In this document: one piece after another, positions 20,441 through 27,701 of the stretch
Numbering within the stretch: the first letter of the stretch is position 1
Layout: each line of letters opens with the position of its first letter
Source of the DNA: Euryarchaeota archaeon UBA487
GTDB lineage: Archaea > Thermoplasmatota > Poseidoniia > Poseidoniales > Thalassarchaeaceae
NCBI GenBank assembly: GCA_002505695.1
Contig: DAVU01000014.1
Span: 9,432-73,431 of the forward strand
DNA length: 64,000 nt
Direction: 5' to 3'
Made by a program: the position numbers and the translations under genes
Notes under the pieces: model-generated
Databases searched by the model: none
Told to the model about the DNA's origin: nothing
The model's input: the letters and a program-made list of their open reading frames with translations, nothing else

Positions 20441-20992
20441 ATGGCACGTCGCGCAGAAAGGGTCGACTCCGAACTCCTTGCACGATTGGAGTCAGGTGGG
20501 AGCGACAAGATCAGGGTTCCCTTACCAAACAGGAAGATCAACGAGATGTTTGCGATAGCTGACCAGATTCTTGGTGGGCGGAGGGTGACGGCCGTCTGCG
20601 AGGATGGAGAATCAAGACTTGCCCGAATTCCTGGGAAGATGCGACGCCGACAATGGGTGCGAGAAGGTGATTTGATAGTCGTTCAACCCTGGGATTTCCA
20701 AGACTCGAAGGCAGATGTCAGAAGTAGATACACAAAGACGCAGTCAATCTACCTCTCAAGGAAAGGGGTGCTGCCGGAGATAGTCGATCTCTTCGGATAC
20801 TCAGACGATGACATAACTGCCATGGATGAGGGCGACATGGAATATGACGACCAACCCACAGAGGAAAGGACGAAGTCCGAGGAACCGTTGGAAATCGATC
20901 AGGACAATGAGCCAGACCAGATTACAGAGGAAGCCACAGATACCATGGTCACCAGAAGAGATGAGGACGACATAGATTCATTCTTCGGTTGA
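20441..20992 (+). CDS. eif1a: Translation initiation factor aIF-1A with acidic C-terminal extension
   Basis: OB-fold signature ILGGRRVTAVCEDGESRLARIPGKMRRRQWVREGDLIVVQPWDFQ; synteny with rio1 and KH genes. Confidence 0.95.
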   Translation: MARRAERVDSELLARLESGGSDKIRVPLPNRKINEMFAIADQILGGRRVTAVCEDGESRLARIPGKMRRRQWVREGDLIVVQPWDFQDSKADVRSRYTKTQSIYLSRKGVLPEIVDLFGYSDDDITAMDEGDMEYDDQPTEERTKSEEPLEIDQDNEPDQITEEATDTMVTRRDEDDIDSFFG

Positions 20993-20999
20993 GTTTTCC

Positions 21000-21857
21000 A
21001 TGGCCATCGACATCATCAGCATCCTAATCCCTGCAGTCTTTGCCGGCCTTGTAGCAATCATATCTACCGTCTTTGTCGAACGTGGTGGTGGTGCTATCGG
21101 GGGAATCATAACCCTGCCGACCACAATCGTCCCTGCCAGCCTAGGTATTTGGTCGGAGGTCGGATCAGAGGAGTCTTTCTCCGCGGCCATGTCAATAGTG
21201 CCGGTTGGCATGCTCCTGAATCTGCTCTTTTTGGGGATATGGAGAAACTCTCCCATGTGGTTTGGTGGCCTGTTGAAGGGAAACACCCTACTCGCCGCCG
21301 TCTCCGTGTTATCAGTGGCCCTGTGGGCCATCTTCGCCGGCATTTCAGCGTCCATAGTGGAAATTACATCAAATTCAATCGATCCTCTAATGATTGCGAT
21401 CACGACAACATCGGCTTCCATTGTTTTGGGATTCGTGGCAGTGAAGTCGAACCCCACAGCACCAGCCGGAAAGAATGCAGTTGGCTGGGGCGTCTTGTTG
21501 GTCAGGGGCACAGCTGCTGGCTTGGCGATTGGGGCCTCAGTGTGGATTGCATCGATGGGTTTGCCATTCATTTCTGGAATAATCTCTGTCTTCCCAGCCA
21601 TATTTCTAACCACTATGGTTTCGCTTTGGCTGTCCCAGGGACCTGAAGTCCCCATCGGAGCTGCTGGACCCATGATGTTGGGATCAGCCTCGGTATCCAT
21701 CTATGCTATCCTCACCATCTTCCTGTTCCCTGTGATGAGCCCTTGGATGGGGGCGATAATTTCATGGTTCATTGTCATAGGTACTTTTACAGCCCCAGTT
21801 GGTTATTGGACATGGCGAACTCTTGATGGAGGAGAAGTGCAGGTGAGTAATGGATGA
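21000..21857 (+). CDS. Multi-pass membrane protein with internal duplication (DUF3147-like)
   Basis: About 8-9 hydrophobic segments; two similar halves (GGIITLPTTIV / SGIISVFPAIF). Confidence 0.75.
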   Translation: MAIDIISILIPAVFAGLVAIISTVFVERGGGAIGGIITLPTTIVPASLGIWSEVGSEESFSAAMSIVPVGMLLNLLFLGIWRNSPMWFGGLLKGNTLLAAVSVLSVALWAIFAGISASIVEITSNSIDPLMIAITTTSASIVLGFVAVKSNPTAPAGKNAVGWGVLLVRGTAAGLAIGASVWIASMGLPFISGIISVFPAIFLTTMVSLWLSQGPEVPIGAAGPMMLGSASVSIYAILTIFLFPVMSPWMGAIISWFIVIGTFTAPVGYWTWRTLDGGEVQVSNG

Positions 21858-22741
21858 GGGAGCCAGAGGACGAAGAGTGGGAGGACAATCCCGGCTACGG
21901 GGATGATTCAGTACCTACACGGCATTGGATGGAGGAACCGAGATACAAGCAACTATTCAATGAAATAGAGGACAAGATATCCGGCGTCCTGGGGAAAGGC
22001 GAATTTGAGTGGTCCGATAGAAGGGTCTTCGATAGCGTCTTTGATCAAAGCACACTCCTAGCACTCCACAAATTGATGGAGGGAGGGGAGATCGATACCC
22101 TCGACTTTCCGATAGCAAGAGGAAAAGAGGCACATGTATTCCATGCTACGAGTTCAACTGGGCCAGTGGCCGTGAAGATATTCCATACTACTAACGCCGT
22201 CTTCAAATCGCTCTCCAAATACATAGACGGAGACCCAAGATTCGGCGGGTTGAAAAGGCGACATAGGGAAATTGTCAACGTATGGGTGAGAAAAGAAGTT
22301 AGGAACCTTCGACGTTGCAGAAGACATGGAATTCCTGCTCCTATGCCTAGAGCCAATTACAAGAACGTCCTCGTGATGGACCTAATCGGAAGCCTGAACG
22401 AACCATCGCCTAGACTCAGAGATGTCACAGTTCCAAATGTAGAGAAAGTGTTCAACGAATTGATAAAAATGATATCCGTCATGTGGCAAAGAGCCACGAT
22501 GGTCCACTCTGATTTCAGCGAATACAACATACTCTGGCATGAGGGTGAACCATGGATTATCGACGTTGGACAGGCCGTCGTCGAGCAACACCCTTCAGCT
22601 AGGGAGTTCCTAGTTCGGGACGTAACGAGAATTGTTGAGTGGGCAAATCGTAATGGCATTAAGGTCGATGTTGCGGAGTCGTTGCTGAGAGTTATCGACG
22701 ATCCAGCTCCAGAATTAGAACCTCTGCCTGGATTGGATTGA
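21854..22741 (+). CDS. rio1: RIO1-family atypical protein kinase/ATPase
   Basis: IARGKEAHVF, AVKIF, VHSDFSEYNIL, IIDVGQAV. Confidence 0.95.
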   Translation: MREPEDEEWEDNPGYGDDSVPTRHWMEEPRYKQLFNEIEDKISGVLGKGEFEWSDRRVFDSVFDQSTLLALHKLMEGGEIDTLDFPIARGKEAHVFHATSSTGPVAVKIFHTTNAVFKSLSKYIDGDPRFGGLKRRHREIVNVWVRKEVRNLRRCRRHGIPAPMPRANYKNVLVMDLIGSLNEPSPRLRDVTVPNVEKVFNELIKMISVMWQRATMVHSDFSEYNILWHEGEPWIIDVGQAVVEQHPSAREFLVRDVTRIVEWANRNGIKVDVAESLLRVIDDPAPELEPLPGLD

Positions 22742-22766: not shown

Positions 22767-23480
22767 ATGGAATCACTCACTAGGATACCCAAGGAACGCA
22801 TTGCAGTTCTTATCGGAAAGGGGGGCGAAACAAGGAAATCAATAGAAGAGGCCTCTGGAGTAAAACTCCACATTGATTCCACCACGGGCGAGGTTTCGGT
22901 GGACTGGCCGACCGACGTCGACCCGGTTTTGAGACTGAAACTTCCGGACATAATCCGCGCCATAGGCAGGGGCCTTGCTCCCAACCGGGCCCTTCGGTTG
23001 ATCGGAGATGATGCTTTCCTGCGCATTTACGACATAAGGGAATGGGTCGGGAGGAAAGGGAACCACACCCGTCGTATGCGCAGTAGACTCATTGGCAGGG
23101 ACGGGAGGATTAGATCTCTGATCGAGAGTTTTACTGGCACGGAGATCGCAATTCATGGATCCACAGTGGTAGTCATTGGGGATGAATTGGGCTTAATGAC
23201 AGCCTGCACCGCCATAGAGGGTCTCTTGGATGGCGCTGAGCACAGCACCGTGATCAGGGGCATGGAAAGGGACGTACGCAGAAGGAGGATCGAAGATAGA
23301 AGCCTGGATAGCTATCAAGTCAAGGATGCCACGACAAACACTGCTACAGAGTTCGAGGATCTGGTGCCAGGATTGGCTGAAATTAGAAACAAAAGGAAGA
23401 ACATCGACACCCAAGAACCCACCGAAGATATCGGGACAACCGAAGCAGAACATGATACGGGTGCGCACTCCGAGGAATGA
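22767..23480 (+). CDS. KH-domain small-subunit rRNA processing protein (Dim2/Pno1/Krr1-like)
   Basis: Two KH GxxG loops (IGKGGETRK, IGRDGRIR), IIRAIGRG; conserved position after rio1. Confidence 0.92.
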   Translation: MESLTRIPKERIAVLIGKGGETRKSIEEASGVKLHIDSTTGEVSVDWPTDVDPVLRLKLPDIIRAIGRGLAPNRALRLIGDDAFLRIYDIREWVGRKGNHTRRMRSRLIGRDGRIRSLIESFTGTEIAIHGSTVVVIGDELGLMTACTAIEGLLDGAEHSTVIRGMERDVRRRRIEDRSLDSYQVKDATTNTATEFEDLVPGLAEIRNKRKNIDTQEPTEDIGTTEAEHDTGAHSEE

Positions 23481-23535
23481 CGGATTATGACTGCCTAAAC
23501 GGAGGTTGATACGACCCCCCGCCTTTTCAGACTCG

Positions 23536-25071
23536 ATGCCGGTTAACGTTGTATGGTTCAAGCGTGACCTCAGGATCAGGGACCATGCGCCCCTGTCCGA
23601 AGCCGCAAAGGGAAGCGATCCGCTGATCCTTTTGTATCTCATAGAACCCGAGAGATTGGCTCAGCCCGATACCGATCCAACGCATATCGAGTGGGAGTTG
23701 GATTGTGCAACTGAACTGGATAAAAATTTGAAGGCCAGGGGAGGATCCCTGCATGTCGTATACTCCAATGTAATTGACTGCCTCTCAAAAATCAACTCCG
23801 AATACCGAATAAACAAAATATTCTCCCATCAAGAAACTGGAACATCTTGGTCCTATGAACGAGATCGTAGGGTCAAGGGGTGGTGCAACAAAGAAGGTGT
23901 GTCCTGGGAGGAATTCCCCACAAATGGCGTCGTTCGGGGGTTGATGGACAGGGACCATTGGAAGGGGTTCAGGGACAAGAGAATGTCGAACCCCCCAATC
24001 CCCCCGCCCGTTTCAATAAGATCGATACCCGCAACAGACAGCAAGCCTACCGTTGATTCTATGGGTTTGACTCCCAGAAAGCTAACTCAACGCCCGAACC
24101 CCGGAGAGAATGCAGCGATCGAAACCCTAGACTCGTTTCTGAATTTGAGAGGCGAACCATACAGATGGCGAATGTCCTCACCCGCGGAGGCGAGCTATCA
24201 CTGCTCAAGGCTATCACCATATTTCAGCACTGGTTGTCTCTCAATCAGAAGTGCCCTCTGGAAGACCAACCAAAGAAAAGCCGCGTTAAAAGACTCGAAG
24301 ATCAGCAACAAAAGCAAATCATCGTGGGCCAAGAGCTTGAGCTCATTTCAGAGTAGATTGGCGTGGCACTGTCATTTCATCCAGAAACTCGAACAAGAAC
24401 CCACATTGGACCTCATTGCGATGAACGTAGATTTAGACTCGCGCATGGAAAGGGAATATGACGAGACTACCTTCCGTGCATGGGCATCAGGTAATACCGG
24501 CTGGCCGTTCTTTGATGCCTGCATGAGACAACTGATTTCCACTGGTTGGATCAACTTCAGGATGAGAGCGATGATTATGTCTGTATCATCATACACCCTC
24601 TGGCTGCCTTGGAGGGATTCCGGCTTACACTTGGCGAGGCTTTTCTTGGACTACGAGCCTGGCATACACTGGTCCCAAGTCGGCATGCAATCTGGAACAA
24701 CTGGAATCAACTCAATCCGAGCCTACTCTGTCCATAAACAGGGATTGGATCACGATCCCTACGGCGATTTCATAAAATCATGGATACCTTCGTTGAAAAA
24801 CGTTCCAACAGAATTCATTCATGAGCCATGGAAGATGCCAGTTAGTGTCCAAAACGAGAGTGGTTGTGTAATAGAAAGAGACTACCCGTCGCCAATGCTG
24901 GATGAGTCAAAATCAAGAAGAGAGGGTGTCAAGAGGGCTTACTCAGCGAGAAGGAGTGCAAAGTCTAGAGAAACGAGCAAGAAGGTATACGAAAAACATG
25001 GAAGTAGGAAGAATCGACGCAGAAGGAAGCCGACAAGGACAGACGACCCGCTACAGACGAAGTTATTCTGA
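23536..25071 (+). CDS. DNA photolyase/cryptochrome family protein
   Basis: VWFKRDLRIRDH, SRLSPYFSTG, GNTGWPFFDACMRQL, GWINFRMRAM, FLDYEPGIHWSQ. ATG 23536 preferred. Confidence 0.93.
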   Translation: MPVNVVWFKRDLRIRDHAPLSEAAKGSDPLILLYLIEPERLAQPDTDPTHIEWELDCATELDKNLKARGGSLHVVYSNVIDCLSKINSEYRINKIFSHQETGTSWSYERDRRVKGWCNKEGVSWEEFPTNGVVRGLMDRDHWKGFRDKRMSNPPIPPPVSIRSIPATDSKPTVDSMGLTPRKLTQRPNPGENAAIETLDSFLNLRGEPYRWRMSSPAEASYHCSRLSPYFSTGCLSIRSALWKTNQRKAALKDSKISNKSKSSWAKSLSSFQSRLAWHCHFIQKLEQEPTLDLIAMNVDLDSRMEREYDETTFRAWASGNTGWPFFDACMRQLISTGWINFRMRAMIMSVSSYTLWLPWRDSGLHLARLFLDYEPGIHWSQVGMQSGTTGINSIRAYSVHKQGLDHDPYGDFIKSWIPSLKNVPTEFIHEPWKMPVSVQNESGCVIERDYPSPMLDESKSRREGVKRAYSARRSAKSRETSKKVYEKHGSRKNRRRRKPTRTDDPLQTKLF

Positions 25072-25112: not shown

Positions 25113-26399
25113 GTGAATCCCTTTGAGTCCCTGTATGAATACGAGAAATGGGCCATTCGGATCTTGATTATCACGTTGCTATTTTTCGGCTTCGGAATTA
25201 CAACGCACTCCACTGGATTTGAAAACCCCATCTCGGAGTTGGTGTTCACTTATTTCCTCGACTCGATATTGAACGAGTCGAGTGGGGACAGCGGATATAA
25301 TTACGTCAATACCGCTGGTTACGGCCTCGGACTCGCACTATTCGTGGTATCTCTGGCAGGGCTTCTTAGGATTGCTGGGATAGACGGGTCCGATGCAATG
25401 CTCGTTGCCCTCATTCCATGGGTATTGTGGGCCCCTTTTGGAGAGGTAATTGAGGATGCTGGCTTGTTTGGAAGTACAATGGCTCCATGGTTCGTAAGCC
25501 CAGGGATCCACTTCCAGACCGCAGCATGGGTCGTCCTATCTGGATTCTTGGGCCACCGTGTTTCTGTGGGTCGTTATGGTGGAACCGTAGATGCGGGCCG
25601 ATCCACACGCCATATATCAGCTATGTTAATCGCCGCTCAGGCCTTAATTTACTGCACAAGCACCCTCGAGAACTCATCAAATGGACTCACCAATACTCTC
25701 GATCGAGAGGTAATGGCGATCATATCCATCTTCGGGATTTCATCACCATACTGGCTAGCGGGATCACATGCAGATAAATTCGATGACACACAGAGGGTCG
25801 TCTACACTTCTGGAGTTGGCGGCTCTATCGTATTATTCTCTATCTTAGCCGCCTACGCCGTTGAAGGGGTCAATGGCAATCTGACTATATGGCCGATAAT
25901 TATCGTCTTTGGCGTTCCATATCTGATCTGTATGGGAATTTTTTCCTATGGGAAAGAAGATGCTAGAAGGTCTTTGGAACTAGGTTTCGTACCGGGAGTC
26001 TTACCTCCCGGAATGACGGAAAGCGACTACCTAACTCTGGATACTCCACAGAAGAAAGAAGTTGAGTCTTTATGGAAGCGGGGAGTCCTCGCCAGCCCTG
26101 CGGTCTTACTCCCAGTTGGCGGCCAAATTGGGGATGGAATCGCGACATGGATAGGAATCGACTACTTTGGATACACGGAGAAGCACGTGATTAGCGCGAT
26201 GGTCACGGGAGTATTAGATACTTCAATCACTTTCACCATTCTCAAAATTGGAATTGCTGGTGTAATTTGTTGGTTTTATTCGCAAGCCGTCTTCGAACAC
26301 CGGCAGCAACATCTCAGAATACTAATCGCTCTCTGTTTGATGGTAGTTGGCCTCGCGCCTGCCTTGAGGAACGTGTTCAGGCTCACACTGGGCGTATGA
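25113..26399 (+). CDS. DUF63-like archaeal multi-pass membrane protein
   Basis: GYNYVNTAGYG near the N-terminus; DGIATWIGIDYFGYTEKHV; LMVVGLAPALRNVFR at the C-terminus. Confidence 0.75.
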   Translation: MNPFESLYEYEKWAIRILIITLLFFGFGITTHSTGFENPISELVFTYFLDSILNESSGDSGYNYVNTAGYGLGLALFVVSLAGLLRIAGIDGSDAMLVALIPWVLWAPFGEVIEDAGLFGSTMAPWFVSPGIHFQTAAWVVLSGFLGHRVSVGRYGGTVDAGRSTRHISAMLIAAQALIYCTSTLENSSNGLTNTLDREVMAIISIFGISSPYWLAGSHADKFDDTQRVVYTSGVGGSIVLFSILAAYAVEGVNGNLTIWPIIIVFGVPYLICMGIFSYGKEDARRSLELGFVPGVLPPGMTESDYLTLDTPQKKEVESLWKRGVLASPAVLLPVGGQIGDGIATWIGIDYFGYTEKHVISAMVTGVLDTSITFTILKIGIAGVICWFYSQAVFEHRQQHLRILIALCLMVVGLAPALRNVFRLTLGV

Positions 26400-26441: not shown

Positions 26442-27701
26442 ATGTACGATTACCCCGATGAGGATTTGCCGTTTGATACTCAGATGCTGGACCGTCTCGC
26501 AGAGGTTTCGATCCGAGTTGGATTGAATCTACAAAAGGGTCAAAATCTGATAATCACGGCTCCGGTAGAATCCCTCCCGCTTGTTAGGAGGCTCTCTGCG
26601 GAGGCATACAAAAGCGGTGCTGGGGTAGTATCCACATTACTCTCAGACGACCTCTTGTCACTGACTAGGTATGAGCATGCATCTGATGAGAGCTTGGATT
26701 CCGCACCATCTTGGATGTTCAATGGAATGGCTGAAGCTTTCGACAACAATACGGCGAGGCTGGCCGTCTCCGCAGCAAACCCGTTATTATTGAATGGTCA
26801 GGATCCAGTTCGCGTCGCAAGAGCCGGGAAATCGATGTCTTTAGCTTCAAAACCCGCGATGGAAAGAATCACAAATTTCGTGACAAACTGGAACATAATT
26901 TCTTACCCAGGTTCCGCATGGGCAAAGCAAGTCTTCCCTGACCTTGAAGAAAGAGACGCCATCGCTTCCTTGGCACAAGCTATTTTTTCGATCTCAAGAG
27001 TGGATAATCCGGATCCGATCGCAGCATGGGAGAAGCATCAACAGACCCTCACAAGTAGGCAAAAATGGCTCAATGAGAAGAATTTCTCTGCTTTGAGGTA
27101 TAGCGGCCCCGGGACGGATCTGACAATAGGTTTGGCAGAGGGACACGAATGGAAGGGAGGTGCTAGCACTTCCAAAAACGGAATAACATGCACACCCAAC
27201 ATCCCTACTGAGGAAGTATTCACCACTCCGCATTCCCATAGAGTCGATGGCTGCGTCAGGGCTACGAAGCCATTGGTCTATCGTGGAACCTTGATTGACG
27301 GCATCGAGGTTGAGTTCGAGAAGGGAAAAATCACAAAAGCAAGGGCTGACAAAGGCGAGGAGGTCTTCCTCAATCTTCTAGACACAGATGAGGGTGCTCG
27401 ACGCTTGGGGGAGGTCGCCCTCGTCCCGCATTCATCTCCAATAAGCGAATCAGGATTGCTATTCTACAATACACTCTATGATGAAAACGCAAGTTGCCAT
27501 ATCGCACTTGGGCAGTGTTACTCCAAGTGTTTCAGGGACCACATAGGGAACAGTCCTGAGAGCGTGAAAGAGGCTGGTGGCAATACATCGAACATACACG
27601 TAGATTGGATGATTGGCTCAGATAAAATGGACATCGACGGAGTCTCCCAGGATGGGACGATCACACCCGTGATGCGAAACGGTGAGTGGGCGTATAATTG
27701 A
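26442..27701 (+). CDS. Thermophilic metalloprotease family M29 aminopeptidase (AmpS/PepS/AmpT-like)
   Basis: NIPTEEVFTTP, LGEVALV, LFYNTLYDENASCHIALG, HVDWMIG. Confidence 0.95.
   Translation: MYDYPDEDLPFDTQMLDRLAEVSIRVGLNLQKGQNLIITAPVESLPLVRRLSAEAYKSGAGVVSTLLSDDLLSLTRYEHASDESLDSAPSWMFNGMAEAFDNNTARLAVSAANPLLLNGQDPVRVARAGKSMSLASKPAMERITNFVTNWNIISYPGSAWAKQVFPDLEERDAIASLAQAIFSISRVDNPDPIAAWEKHQQTLTSRQKWLNEKNFSALRYSGPGTDLTIGLAEGHEWKGGASTSKNGITCTPNIPTEEVFTTPHSHRVDGCVRATKPLVYRGTLIDGIEVEFEKGKITKARADKGEEVFLNLLDTDEGARRLGEVALVPHSSPISESGLLFYNTLYDENASCHIALGQCYSKCFRDHIGNSPESVKEAGGNTSNIHVDWMIGSDKMDIDGVSQDGTITPVMRNGEWAYN

What the first reader, a model, noticed from the sequence alone, without database searches (positions are those of the whole stretch)
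20795..20992. aIF-1A with a eukaryote-like acidic C-terminal tail ending in DDIDSFFG
Seen: about 65 aa of D/E-rich tail after the OB fold, ending EDDIDSFFG-stop. Established: archaeal aIF-1A generally lacks the long acidic tail of eukaryotic eIF1A, whose terminal DIDDI-type motif binds eIF5B domain IV; archaeal stalk protein P1 ends in a similar acidic-LxxLFG motif that recruits translational GTPases. Inference: a convergent aIF5B-recruiting peptide. The IxxFF core is also PIP-box-like.
Basis: partly seen in the sequence, partly recalled or inferred. Interest (0 to 1): 0.55.

Follow-up and report, generated by a model that had tools for sequence, protein, structure and literature searches.

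The report
Archaeal aIF1A with stalk-like acidic tail
The translation initiation factor aIF1A of this Marine Group II archaeon carries a 67-residue acidic, variable tail that reviews say archaeal aIF1A lacks, and its conserved last six residues copy the key positions of the ribosomal stalk peptide that catches translation factors, so it probably tethers such a factor, most likely aIF5B, to the small ribosomal subunit.

Summary
Window 20441-20992 (+) encodes a single-copy, 183-residue aIF1A. Residues 1-116 are the normal core. Residues 117-183 form a tail with 26 D/E and 4 K/R, ending RDEDDIDSFFG-stop.

The tail occurs across the order Poseidoniales (Marine Group II). It was not found in the sister group MGIII or in the rest of Thermoplasmatota. 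Among 120 aIF1A cluster representatives that reach the core end, 88 stop within 5 residues of it.

The linker varies freely, but the tip is nearly invariant. DDIDSFFG marks part of Thalassarchaeaceae (MGIIb). Other genera end in LEALFG, LEDLFG, IDALFA or IDSLFGPA, and MGIIa tails add 2-5 internal poly-D LFG repeats. The shared pattern h-x-x-h-F-[G/A] places residues at the positions of the stalk aP1 contacts L103, L106 and F107.

In this genome only P0, P1 and aIF1A end in an acidic run plus hxxhFG. The stalk-mimic reading is therefore supported by sequence, but no binding was tested. The eukaryote-like DIDDI reading and the PIP-box reading fit less well.

This scan has already reported the same feature on at least five other MGII genomes. 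I found no paper describing it.

The parts
20441..20992 (+). aIF1A gene (183 aa plus TGA stop), single copy in the genome
   Evidence: ORF. PF01176 and TIGR00523 score above their cut-offs. There is one match per genome in 104 of 111 genomes of the class.
20441..20788 (+). Conserved core, residues 1-116: N-terminal helix, OB fold and C-terminal helix ending ...GVLPEIVD
   Evidence: NCBIfam models cover residues 18-116. Mean column entropy is 0.21 bits for residues 21-116 across 112 homologues.
20783..20797 (+). Boundary motif V115-D-L-F-G119, which corresponds to the natural C-terminus (...DIF, DIY or DVF-stop) of tail-less relatives
   Evidence: D116, F118 and G119 are invariant in alignment A1. 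MGIII and other Thermoplasmatota aIF1A end ...ILDIY, SIDVF or VVDIF. Eukaryote-type eIF1A has ...ETDSFGQG at the matching place.
20798..20956 (+). Acidic, hypervariable linker, residues 120-172, probably disordered
   Evidence: Residues 117-172 have mean entropy 2.09 bits and a mean top-residue frequency of 0.41, with indels. AF2 pLDDT is below 50 for residues 131-170, though the whole model is poor.
20957..20989 (+). Conserved terminal peptide R173-G183 (RDEDDIDSFFG). Its core I178-x-x-F181-F182-G183 (nt 20972-20989) is the stalk-like short linear motif.
   Evidence: Entropy is 0.46 bits. Of 120 homologues, 115 end in IDSFFG. It occurs once per genome in 24 of 36 genomes of the same family. 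It matches the hxxhFG ends of P0 and P1.

Best explanation
This is the cell's only aIF1A, so it must do the normal job in the A site of the 30S initiation complex. In Poseidoniales a disordered polyacidic tether has been added to it. The tether ends in an amphipathic peptide: an acidic run followed by h-x-x-h-F-G-COOH, here DDIDSFFG.

The peptide works as a short linear docking motif of the same type as the C-terminal peptide of the ribosomal stalk proteins P0 and P1. Its three hydrophobic side chains (I178, F181, F182) would insert into the hydrophobic groove of a stalk client. The most likely client is the subunit-joining GTPase aIF5B. Less likely clients are aEF1A, ABCE1 or aEF2.

The result is a 'mini-stalk' on the small subunit. 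It raises the local concentration of the factor on the 30S complex before the 50S subunit, with its seven stalk peptides, arrives and can take the factor over.

What is shown: the gene, the tail, its distribution, the conservation pattern and the positional match to the stalk peptide. What is inferred: disorder, helix formation on binding, the identity of the partner and the hand-over.
For: - Identity and copy number.
- The tip is conserved while the linker is free to vary, which is the signature of a docking motif. Entropy is 0.46 bits for the tip, 2.09 for the linker and 0.21 for the OB core.
- Thirty-six DNA variants encode only two peptides.
- Order-wide consensus. MGIIb genera end in DDIDSFFG, DDIDSLFGPA or DDLFE. 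MGIIa genera end in EDLE(D/A/S)LFG, DD(I/V)DALFA, EINDLFG, GVDELFG or DLAGMFG. All of these except the DDLFE end of genus g10 fit h-x-x-h-F-[G/A].
- In the stalk, L103, L106 and F107 of aP1 (EALAGLSALFG) are the residues essential for binding aEF1A, aEF2 and aIF5B. The aIF1A residues I178, F181, F182 and G183 sit at exactly these positions counted from the C-terminus.
- The MGIIa terminus LEDLFG differs from the same clade's P0 terminus LGDLFG at a single residue.
- Of 7,443 six-frame ORFs of at least 60 aa in this genome, only P0, P1 and aIF1A end in an acidic run plus hxxhFG.
- In MGIIa genomes, DDDD[LM]F[G/A] occurs only inside aIF1A.
- A canonical aIF5B is present.
- aIF5B is a documented stalk client that acts together with aIF1A on the 30S subunit.
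Against: - No binding test was possible.
- The Gly before the first hydrophobic residue (G102 in aP1) is Asp here, and the G102S mutation abolishes aEF2 binding. The small residues of the stalk peptide are replaced by D/E, so the peptide is not an exact copy.
- Stalk termini are invariant across 26 MGII genomes (12 MGIIb, 14 MGIIa, G000 included), while the aIF1A terminus changes between genera (G, A, GPA, E). There is therefore no covariation to tie both to one pocket.
- One MGIIb genus (g3) has a tail with no terminal motif.
- The internal LFG repeats of MGIIa have no free carboxylate.
- The AF2 monomer model is too poor to support disorder or a terminal helix strongly (mean pLDDT 50).
Confidence: 0.45

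Rival explanations
1. This is a eukaryote-type arrangement. The tail is the functional equivalent (convergent or ancestral) of the eIF1A C-terminal tail, and its tip binds domain IV of aIF5B as DIDDI binds eIF5B-D4.
For: The architecture is the same: core, helix...LPE..D-x-F-G, acidic tail with Phe-Gly motifs, then an acidic-hydrophobic end. Compare the eukaryote-type representative P0254 (...GELPENAKINETDSFGQGEDGEAYFEFGD...VDIDDI) with the MGII sequences. The eIF1A-CTT/eIF5B contact is documented.
Against: No DIDDI-like end occurs in this genome. The MGII ends are hxxhF[G/A], not [DE]-I-D-D-I. The MGII aIF5B aligns to the very end with archaeal aIF5B (residues 17-605 against 1G7R), while eukaryotic eIF5B alignments stop at about residues 554-566. 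It therefore keeps the archaeal C-terminal helices, which reviews say lie at the position expected for the aIF1A-binding site. Even in human complexes the DIDDI contact was not seen on the 40S subunit.
Confidence: 0.15
2. The tail acts in cis or on the ribosome. It folds back on the basic RNA-binding face of aIF1A, or lies in the mRNA/P-site channel, and tunes 30S binding, start-site fidelity or release. This would resemble the eIF1A tail's scanning-enhancer elements or the acidic tip of bacterial SSB, which binds its own OB fold.
For: The core is basic (23 K/R against 17 D/E) and the tail has a net charge of -22. MGIIa tails carry repeated internal D-run LFG units that need no free C-terminus. 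The SSB and eIF1A-CTT precedents are cited from my own knowledge.
Against: A purely electrostatic role does not explain an invariant hydrophobic hexapeptide at the extreme C-terminus that matches the stalk peptide position by position.
Confidence: 0.15
3. The I-x-x-F-F end is a PIP-box-like motif that binds PCNA or another partner outside translation.
For: IDSFF fits the h-x-x-a-a half of the PIP consensus Qxx[ILM]xx[FY][FY] (consensus from my own knowledge). It is C-terminal, as many archaeal PIP boxes are.
Against: The Gln position is always D or E. Most Poseidoniales lineages have LF or MF in place of two aromatic residues. The protein is the sole, essential aIF1A. No canonical C-terminal PIP box was found in this genome for comparison, though it is only 67% complete.
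Confidence: 0.05
4. There is no specific partner. The tail is a solubility or 'entropic bristle' appendage, or low-complexity drift.
For: The linker is low-complexity, varies in length (about 45-120 aa) and is poorly conserved.
Against: The tail has been kept across a whole order. The tip is under strong purifying selection, with synonymous change only.
Confidence: 0.05

Closest known systems
Canonical archaeal aIF1A (TIGR00523 / PF01176; e.g. P. abyssi aIF1A in 30S initiation complexes, Kazan et al. 2022, PMC9226500)
   Same: Residues 1-116 are a full-length, above-threshold aIF1A. The gene is single copy and sits in the usual aIF1A-RIO1-KH protein gene cluster.
   Different: [quoted passage not shown] This protein goes on for 67 more residues.
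C-terminal peptide of the archaeal ribosomal stalk proteins aP1/aP0 (P. horikoshii aP1 E98-G108, EALAGLSALFG; Tanzawa et al. 2018, PMC5887453)
   Same: An acidic run sits on a flexible linker, followed by hydrophobic residues at positions -5, -2 and -1 and a terminal Gly. This genome's own P1 ends in GLGSLFG and its P0 in GLGDLFG, against IDSFFG in aIF1A.
   Different: It sits on a small-subunit initiation factor, not on the 50S stalk, and in one copy where the stalk has seven. Asp replaces the Gly at -6 that matters for aEF2 binding. There is Phe at -2, and acidic residues replace the small ones. There is no homology outside the motif.
Eukaryotic eIF1A C-terminal tail (acidic, with Phe-Gly elements and terminal DIDDI that binds eIF5B domain IV)
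   Same: Position and general make-up match: the tail starts after ...LPE...D-x-F-G and is acidic, with hydrophobic motifs including one at the very end.
   Different: The terminal motif is of another type (hxxhFG, not DIDDI). There is no lysine-rich N-terminal tail of the eukaryotic kind. The tail is limited to one archaeal order, which favours an independent origin.
Bacterial SSB: OB fold, disordered linker and acidic tip (...DDDIPF), cited from my own knowledge
   Same: An OB-fold protein with a variable linker and a conserved acidic-hydrophobic C-terminal tip that serves as a partner-docking hub.
   Different: The family and process are unrelated (DNA metabolism), and the tip sequence is different. 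This is an analogy only.

Membership tests
aIF1A / eIF1A (PF01176, TIGR00523) | S1-like OB-fold domain scoring above the curated cut-offs | tested here: met
   PF01176 scores 68.6 bits against a cut-off of 30.2. TIGR00523 scores 113.1 bits against 102.9, and NF003084 scores 117.3 against 91.
aIF1A / eIF1A (PF01176, TIGR00523) | Sole orthologue in the genome, with no tail-less paralogue doing the core job | tested here: met
   There is one match per genome in all but one (G423, two matches) of the 104 of 111 class genomes with a hit, at E <= 1e-8. G000 itself is only 67% complete.
Stalk-type factor-binding peptide (aP1/aP0 C-terminus) | Hydrophobic residues at the positions of L103, L106 and F107, plus a C-terminal Gly | tested here: met
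   I178, F181, F182 and G183 occupy these positions. The order-wide consensus is hxxhF[G/A].
Stalk-type factor-binding peptide (aP1/aP0 C-terminus) | An acidic stretch before the peptide, on a flexible linker | tested here: met
   The peptide is preceded by D174-E-D-D177. The linker is hypervariable and has low pLDDT in a poor model.
Stalk-type factor-binding peptide (aP1/aP0 C-terminus) | Gly before the first hydrophobic residue (G102; G102S abolishes aEF2 binding) | tested here: not met
   The residue at -6 is Asp (D177) in MGIIb and D or E in most MGIIa.
Stalk-type factor-binding peptide (aP1/aP0 C-terminus) | Physical binding to aEF1A, aEF2, aIF5B or ABCE1 | not testable with these tools
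   No multimer prediction or experiment is available here.
Ribosomal_60s (PF00428) stalk protein family | Homology to the P1/P2 dimerisation domain and hinge | tested here: not met
   The Pfam scan of the aIF1A finds PF01176 only. PF00428 finds only P1 in this genome. The likeness is confined to the terminal motif.
Eukaryotic eIF1A C-terminal tail | Terminal [DE]-I-D-D-[IL] motif | tested here: not met
   The protein ends in DSFFG, and the genome has no DIDDI-like C-terminus. Eukaryote-type representatives end in DIDDI, DIDDL, DLDDL or VDVDAI.
Eukaryotic eIF1A C-terminal tail | An open docking site on e/aIF5B domain IV, without the archaeal extra helix | tested here: inconclusive
   This genome's aIF5B aligns to the last residues of archaeal aIF5B, whereas eukaryotic alignments end about 40-50 residues earlier. 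The helix is inferred from the alignment, not from a structure.
PIP box (PCNA-interacting peptide) | Q-x-x-[ILM]-x-x-[FY]-[FY]: a conserved Gln and two aromatic residues | tested here: not met
   The Gln position is D or E in all sequences. The aromatic pair is FF only in part of MGIIb and is LF or MF elsewhere.

The most novel reading that the evidence does not exclude
Poseidoniales have built a 'stalk on the small subunit'. The aIF1A tail is a factor-recruiting tentacle, multivalent in MGIIa, that loads aIF5B onto the 30S complex through the same groove the 50S stalk later uses. This gives a direct hand-over at subunit joining. It would be an independent archaeal solution to the problem that eukaryotes solve with the eIF1A-CTT/eIF5B tether. 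The shared ...LPE..D-x-F-G start of both tails would hint at how the eukaryotic tail arose from the ancestral ...D-I-F C-terminus.
Probability: 0.35. Interest if true: 0.75.

Novelty: new variant of a known kind. Interest (0 to 1): 0.58.

Why it matters
Reviews and structural papers treat the aIF1A tail and its contact with e/aIF5B as eukaryote-specific. Here, one of the most abundant archaeal groups in the surface ocean has a conserved tail on the same factor, with a tip of the ribosomal-stalk type.

If the tip binds aIF5B, it gives a natural, minimal system of one 11-residue peptide. That system could be used to study how a subunit-joining GTPase is recruited before the large subunit arrives, and how the stalk takes over.

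It also shows that stalk-like peptides can be used as portable docking motifs outside the stalk. The natural series offers ready-made variants for testing: a single tip in MGIIb, 2-5 extra repeats in MGIIa, and no tip in one genus.

Tried and rejected
- Covariation of the aIF1A terminus (G, A, GPA, E) with the P1/P0 terminus in the same genomes. The stalk ends are invariant (GLGSLFG, GLGDLFG), so the test gives no signal either way.
- AF2 monomer from a 35-sequence MGII alignment. Mean pLDDT was 50 and even the OB fold was poorly modelled. It is usable only as a weak hint that residues 131-170 are disordered. No multimer tool is available.
- Search for canonical C-terminal PIP boxes in this genome, to define the local PIP consensus. 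None was found. The genome is 67% complete, so this is not informative.
- 'Compensation for a lost factor'. aIF1, aIF2-beta and aIF5B are all present. Rejected.
- Remodelled aIF5B domain IV. The protein is canonical from end to end.
- Murakami et al. 2018 (the aIF5B-aP1 complex) is not held in the library. I could not map the stalk-binding groove residues onto the MGII aIF5B.
- Literature searches found no report of a tailed archaeal aIF1A.
My own estimate of the number expected by chance in the whole collection is about 13. Rejected as unrelated.

Full report
**1. The observation**

The window holds one long ORF at 20441..20992 on the + strand, 183 aa. It is aIF1A. PF01176 matches residues 34-95 at 68.6 bits (cut-off 30.2). 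TIGR00523 matches residues 21-112 at 113.1 bits (cut-off 102.9). Two NCBIfam aIF-1A subfamily models also score above their cut-offs.

All family models end by residue 116. The remaining 67 residues (117-183, nt 20789-20989) contain 26 D/E and 4 K/R, a net charge of -22, whereas the core is basic with 23 K/R against 17 D/E. The protein ends ...TRRDEDDIDSFFG followed by TGA.

**2. Organism and context**

The closest database proteins are annotated as Marine Group II, Poseidoniia or Thalassarchaeaceae. Genome records with the same terminal motif are titled Thalassarchaeaceae, MGIIb or Thalassarchaeum. The window's family (f1) is therefore Thalassarchaeaceae (MGIIb). By elimination, its sister family f2 is Poseidoniaceae (MGIIa); this is an inference.

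The gene is followed after 7 nt by a 285-aa membrane protein with no Pfam match (21000-21857). Next comes a RIO1 kinase, overlapping by 4 nt (21854-22741), and then a two-KH-domain protein of the KRR1/PNO1 type (22767-23480). Without the membrane protein, I recognise this from my own knowledge as the usual archaeal aIF1A-Rio1-KH cluster.

aIF1A is single copy in all but one of the 104 of 111 genomes of the class with a hit. This tailed protein must therefore carry out the core aIF1A function. aIF1, aIF2-beta and a canonical aIF5B are all present.

**3. Is the tail real and selected?**

Of the 120 nearest homologues, 115 end in IDSFFG. The exceptions are fragments, frameshifts or single substitutions (IVSFFG, IESFFG). 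Conservation across 112 non-identical full-length sequences is as follows:

| Region | Residues | Mean column entropy (bits) |
|---|---|---|
| OB fold plus helix | 21-116 | 0.21 |
| Linker (with indels) | 117-172 | 2.09 |
| Terminal peptide | 173-183 | 0.46 |

A scan of about 185,000 species genomes for the DNA pattern encoding [DE][DE]I[DE]SFFG-stop listed 80 loci. Of these, 64 were MGII aIF1A genes, 58 complete and 6 cut by contig ends. Those genes use 36 different 27-mers that encode only DDIDSFFG or EDIDSFFG, with synonymous variation at every codon. The other 16 hits are bacterial, non-acidic and close to the number expected by chance.

**4. Distribution**

I sampled 401 genomes of the phylum for the exact motif:

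- It occurs once per genome in 24 of 36 genomes of the window's family (six genera).
- It does not occur in the sister family (0 of 58), in MGIII (0 of 10) or in any other family.
- The reversed-pattern control gave 0 hits.

The tail itself is wider than this motif. In both MGII families the aIF1A reading frame runs 45-120 aa past the core. In MGIII and family f51 the match stops at about residue 119 and the proteins end ...IPEILDIY...ESIDVF or similar.

Among 120 cluster representatives (50% identity) from 1.8 billion proteins that reach the end of the core, 88 end within 5 residues of it. The long-tailed ones fall into three groups:

- MGII-type sequences.
- Eukaryote-type sequences, ending DIDDI, DIDDL, DLDDL or VDVDAI.
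- A few acidic tails without a hydrophobic end.

This agrees with the literature. Kazan et al. [quoted passage not shown] Schmitt et al. [quoted passage not shown] I found no paper describing the MGII tail.

**5. Anatomy across the order**

| Family | Genera | aIF1A terminus |
|---|---|---|
| MGIIb | g1, g4, g5, g6, g8, g12 | DDIDSFFG |
| MGIIb | g2, g9 | DDIDSLFGPA |
| MGIIb | g10 | (V/L)DDLFE |
| MGIIb | g3 | acidic tail, no terminal motif (no frameshift remnant) |
| MGIIa | g13 | EDLE(D/A/S)LFG |
| MGIIa | g14, g16 | DD(I/V)DALFA |
| MGIIa | g15 | EINDLFG |
| MGIIa | g17 | GVDELFG |
| MGIIa | g18 | DLAGMFG |

Most MGIIa tails also contain 2-5 internal repeats of a poly-Asp run followed by (L/M/I)F(G/A). 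In MGIIa genomes that motif occurs only inside aIF1A.

The window's protein is thus the minimal form: a boundary motif V115-D-L-F-G119, a variable linker and one terminal motif. The boundary motif corresponds to the natural ...D-I-F/Y C-terminus of tail-less relatives. The tail was therefore appended to an end that was already acidic-hydrophobic.

**6. What the tip resembles**

The common denominator of the termini (g10 and g3 apart) is an acidic run followed by h-x-x-h-F-[G/A]-COOH. The C-terminal peptide of archaeal stalk protein aP1 (P. horikoshii E98-G108, EALAGLSALFG) binds aEF1A, aEF2 and aIF5B as a helix. It does so through L103, L106 and F107, and the mutations F107S, L106S and L103S abolish binding.

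Counted from the C-terminus, aIF1A has I178 at -5, F181 at -2, F182 at -1 and G183 at 0. These are the same positions.

In this genome, P1 (G000:C5:41908-42168, PF00428) ends ...EEEEEDDSGFEGLGSLFG and P0 ends ...EEEEEEEEDAGFGGLGDLFG. Of 7,443 six-frame ORFs of at least 60 aa, only five end in hxxh[FWY]G. Only three of those are acidic: P0, P1 and aIF1A. The MGIIa terminus LEDLFG differs from the P0 terminus LGDLFG at one residue.

The resemblance is confined to the motif. The aIF1A has no Ribosomal_60s homology.

The differences matter too. The Gly corresponding to G102, whose G102S mutation abolishes aEF2 binding, is Asp here, and the small residues of the stalk peptide are acidic in aIF1A. 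This may mean selectivity among stalk clients, perhaps against aEF2. That is an inference.

**7. Mechanism proposed**

aIF1A sits in the A site of the 30S initiation complex and acts with aIF5B in the late steps. aIF5B is a documented stalk client.

The most economical reading is that the tail is a flexible tether whose tip docks into the stalk-binding hydrophobic groove of aIF5B. This would concentrate the GTPase on the 30S complex before the 50S subunit arrives. At joining, the seven stalk peptides of the 50S could displace the single aIF1A peptide.

A linker of 35-100 residues is long enough to reach any site on the complex (my estimate), so geometry does not pick out the partner. aEF1A, ABCE1 and aEF2 remain possible. 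I put 0.45 on 'stalk-type docking motif for a stalk client, most likely aIF5B'.

**8. Rivals**

(a) eIF1A-like docking on aIF5B domain IV. The general architecture does resemble eukaryotic eIF1A, down to a D-x-F-G element right after ...LPE.... However, the end motif is of another type. This genome's aIF5B also aligns to the last residues of archaeal aIF5B (residues 17-605 against 1G7R and P. abyssi), whereas eukaryotic alignments stop at about 554-566. It therefore keeps the archaeal C-terminal helix that is thought to lie at that site.

(b) A cis-acting or ribosome-directed role for the polyanion. This is plausible for the linker and the internal repeats, but it does not explain the stalk-like tip.

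(c) PIP box. There is no Gln, and FF is replaced by LF or MF in most lineages.

(d) No specific function. This is contradicted by the conservation of the tip.

**9. Tests that gave nothing**

- The stalk termini are invariant in 26 MGII genomes, so covariation with the aIF1A terminus cannot be assessed.
- The AF2 monomer model is poor (mean pLDDT 50). The lowest confidence is in residues 131-170, and it rises slightly over the last 13 residues.
- The paper with the aIF5B-aP1 complex is not in the library.

**10. Relation to earlier findings of this scan**

My reading was formed and stated first. A word search then showed that the same feature had been reported on at least five other MGII genomes: e1-4951273, e1-1492862, e1-902127, e1-4985531 and e1-3707075. 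The follow-up agents reached the same conclusion of a stalk-like acidic tail that probably tethers aIF5B.

The present window adds these points:

- The minimal MGIIb form with FFG and no internal repeats.
- The genus-by-genus catalogue of termini.
- The tip-less genus g3.
- The negative covariation test.
- The end-to-end canonical aIF5B.
- The genome-wide count showing that P0, P1 and aIF1A are the only such termini.

**11. Verdict**

The feature is real, conserved and order-specific. It contradicts a general statement in the field and appears to be unpublished. It is a new variant of a known factor that carries a motif of a known type. Its function is inferred from sequence only.

Interest is 0.58. 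It would rise to about 0.75 if binding to aIF5B through the stalk groove were shown.

Noticed in passing
window 21000-21857 (+): A 285-aa multi-pass membrane protein with no Pfam match sits between aIF1A (7-nt gap) and the RIO1 kinase (4-nt overlap), inside what is otherwise the usual aIF1A-Rio1-KH protein cluster. It looks co-transcribed and translationally coupled with ribosome and initiation genes.
   Followed up: partly
L001 (G000:C5) and L069-L096, against L076, L084, L085: All 26 MGII genomes examined have stalk ends of the form GF(E/D/G)GLG(S/D)LFG. MGIII and family f51 have AV(S/E)GLGALFG or (M/L)SGLSSLFG. MGII stalk peptides thus gained an extra Phe at -8, recalling the eukaryotic MGFGLFD, in the same lineage that gained the aIF1A tail.
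   Followed up: partly
L037-L068 (MGIIa genomes): MGIIa aIF1A tails are 100-120 aa long. Most carry 2-5 tandem units of a poly-Asp run plus (L/M/I)F(G/A) before the terminal motif. In five MGIIa genomes the DDDD[LM]F[G/A] pattern occurred only inside aIF1A.
   Followed up: yes
L029 (G017, genus g3) and L032, L033 (genus g10): One MGIIb genus has an acidic aIF1A tail ending ...ESDDDGEA, with no hydrophobic tip and no frameshift remnant. Another ends in DDLFE. Both keep an internal D-(S/E)-G-I-W-(E/D) element. These are natural loss or variant cases, useful for testing the function of the tip.
   Followed up: partly
P0232, P0233 (cluster representatives, source organism unknown): These aIF1A homologues have a lysine-rich N-terminal tail (MAKKKKKGGK..., MPPQRRSKGKKKQ...) and an acidic C-terminal tail without DIDDI. 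The arrangement is eukaryote-like, in sequences that score as archaeal-type. Their origin was not determined.
   Followed up: no
P0172 (107 aa, metagenomic): An aIF1A-like protein whose OB fold is cut short and which ends ...APIADDNDDVPF. The tip resembles the bacterial SSB C-terminus (DDDIPF). It may be an assembly artefact.
   Followed up: no
window 20990-20992 and L099-L178: All 58 complete FFG-type aIF1A genes found in the global scan stop with TGA. The pattern would also have allowed TAA or TAG.
   Followed up: no
window 23506-25071, 25113-26399, 26442-27701 (+): Downstream of the KH protein lie a DNA photolyase/cryptochrome (PF00875 plus PF03441), a DUF63 membrane protein and an M29 aminopeptidase. 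These look ordinary.
   Followed up: no
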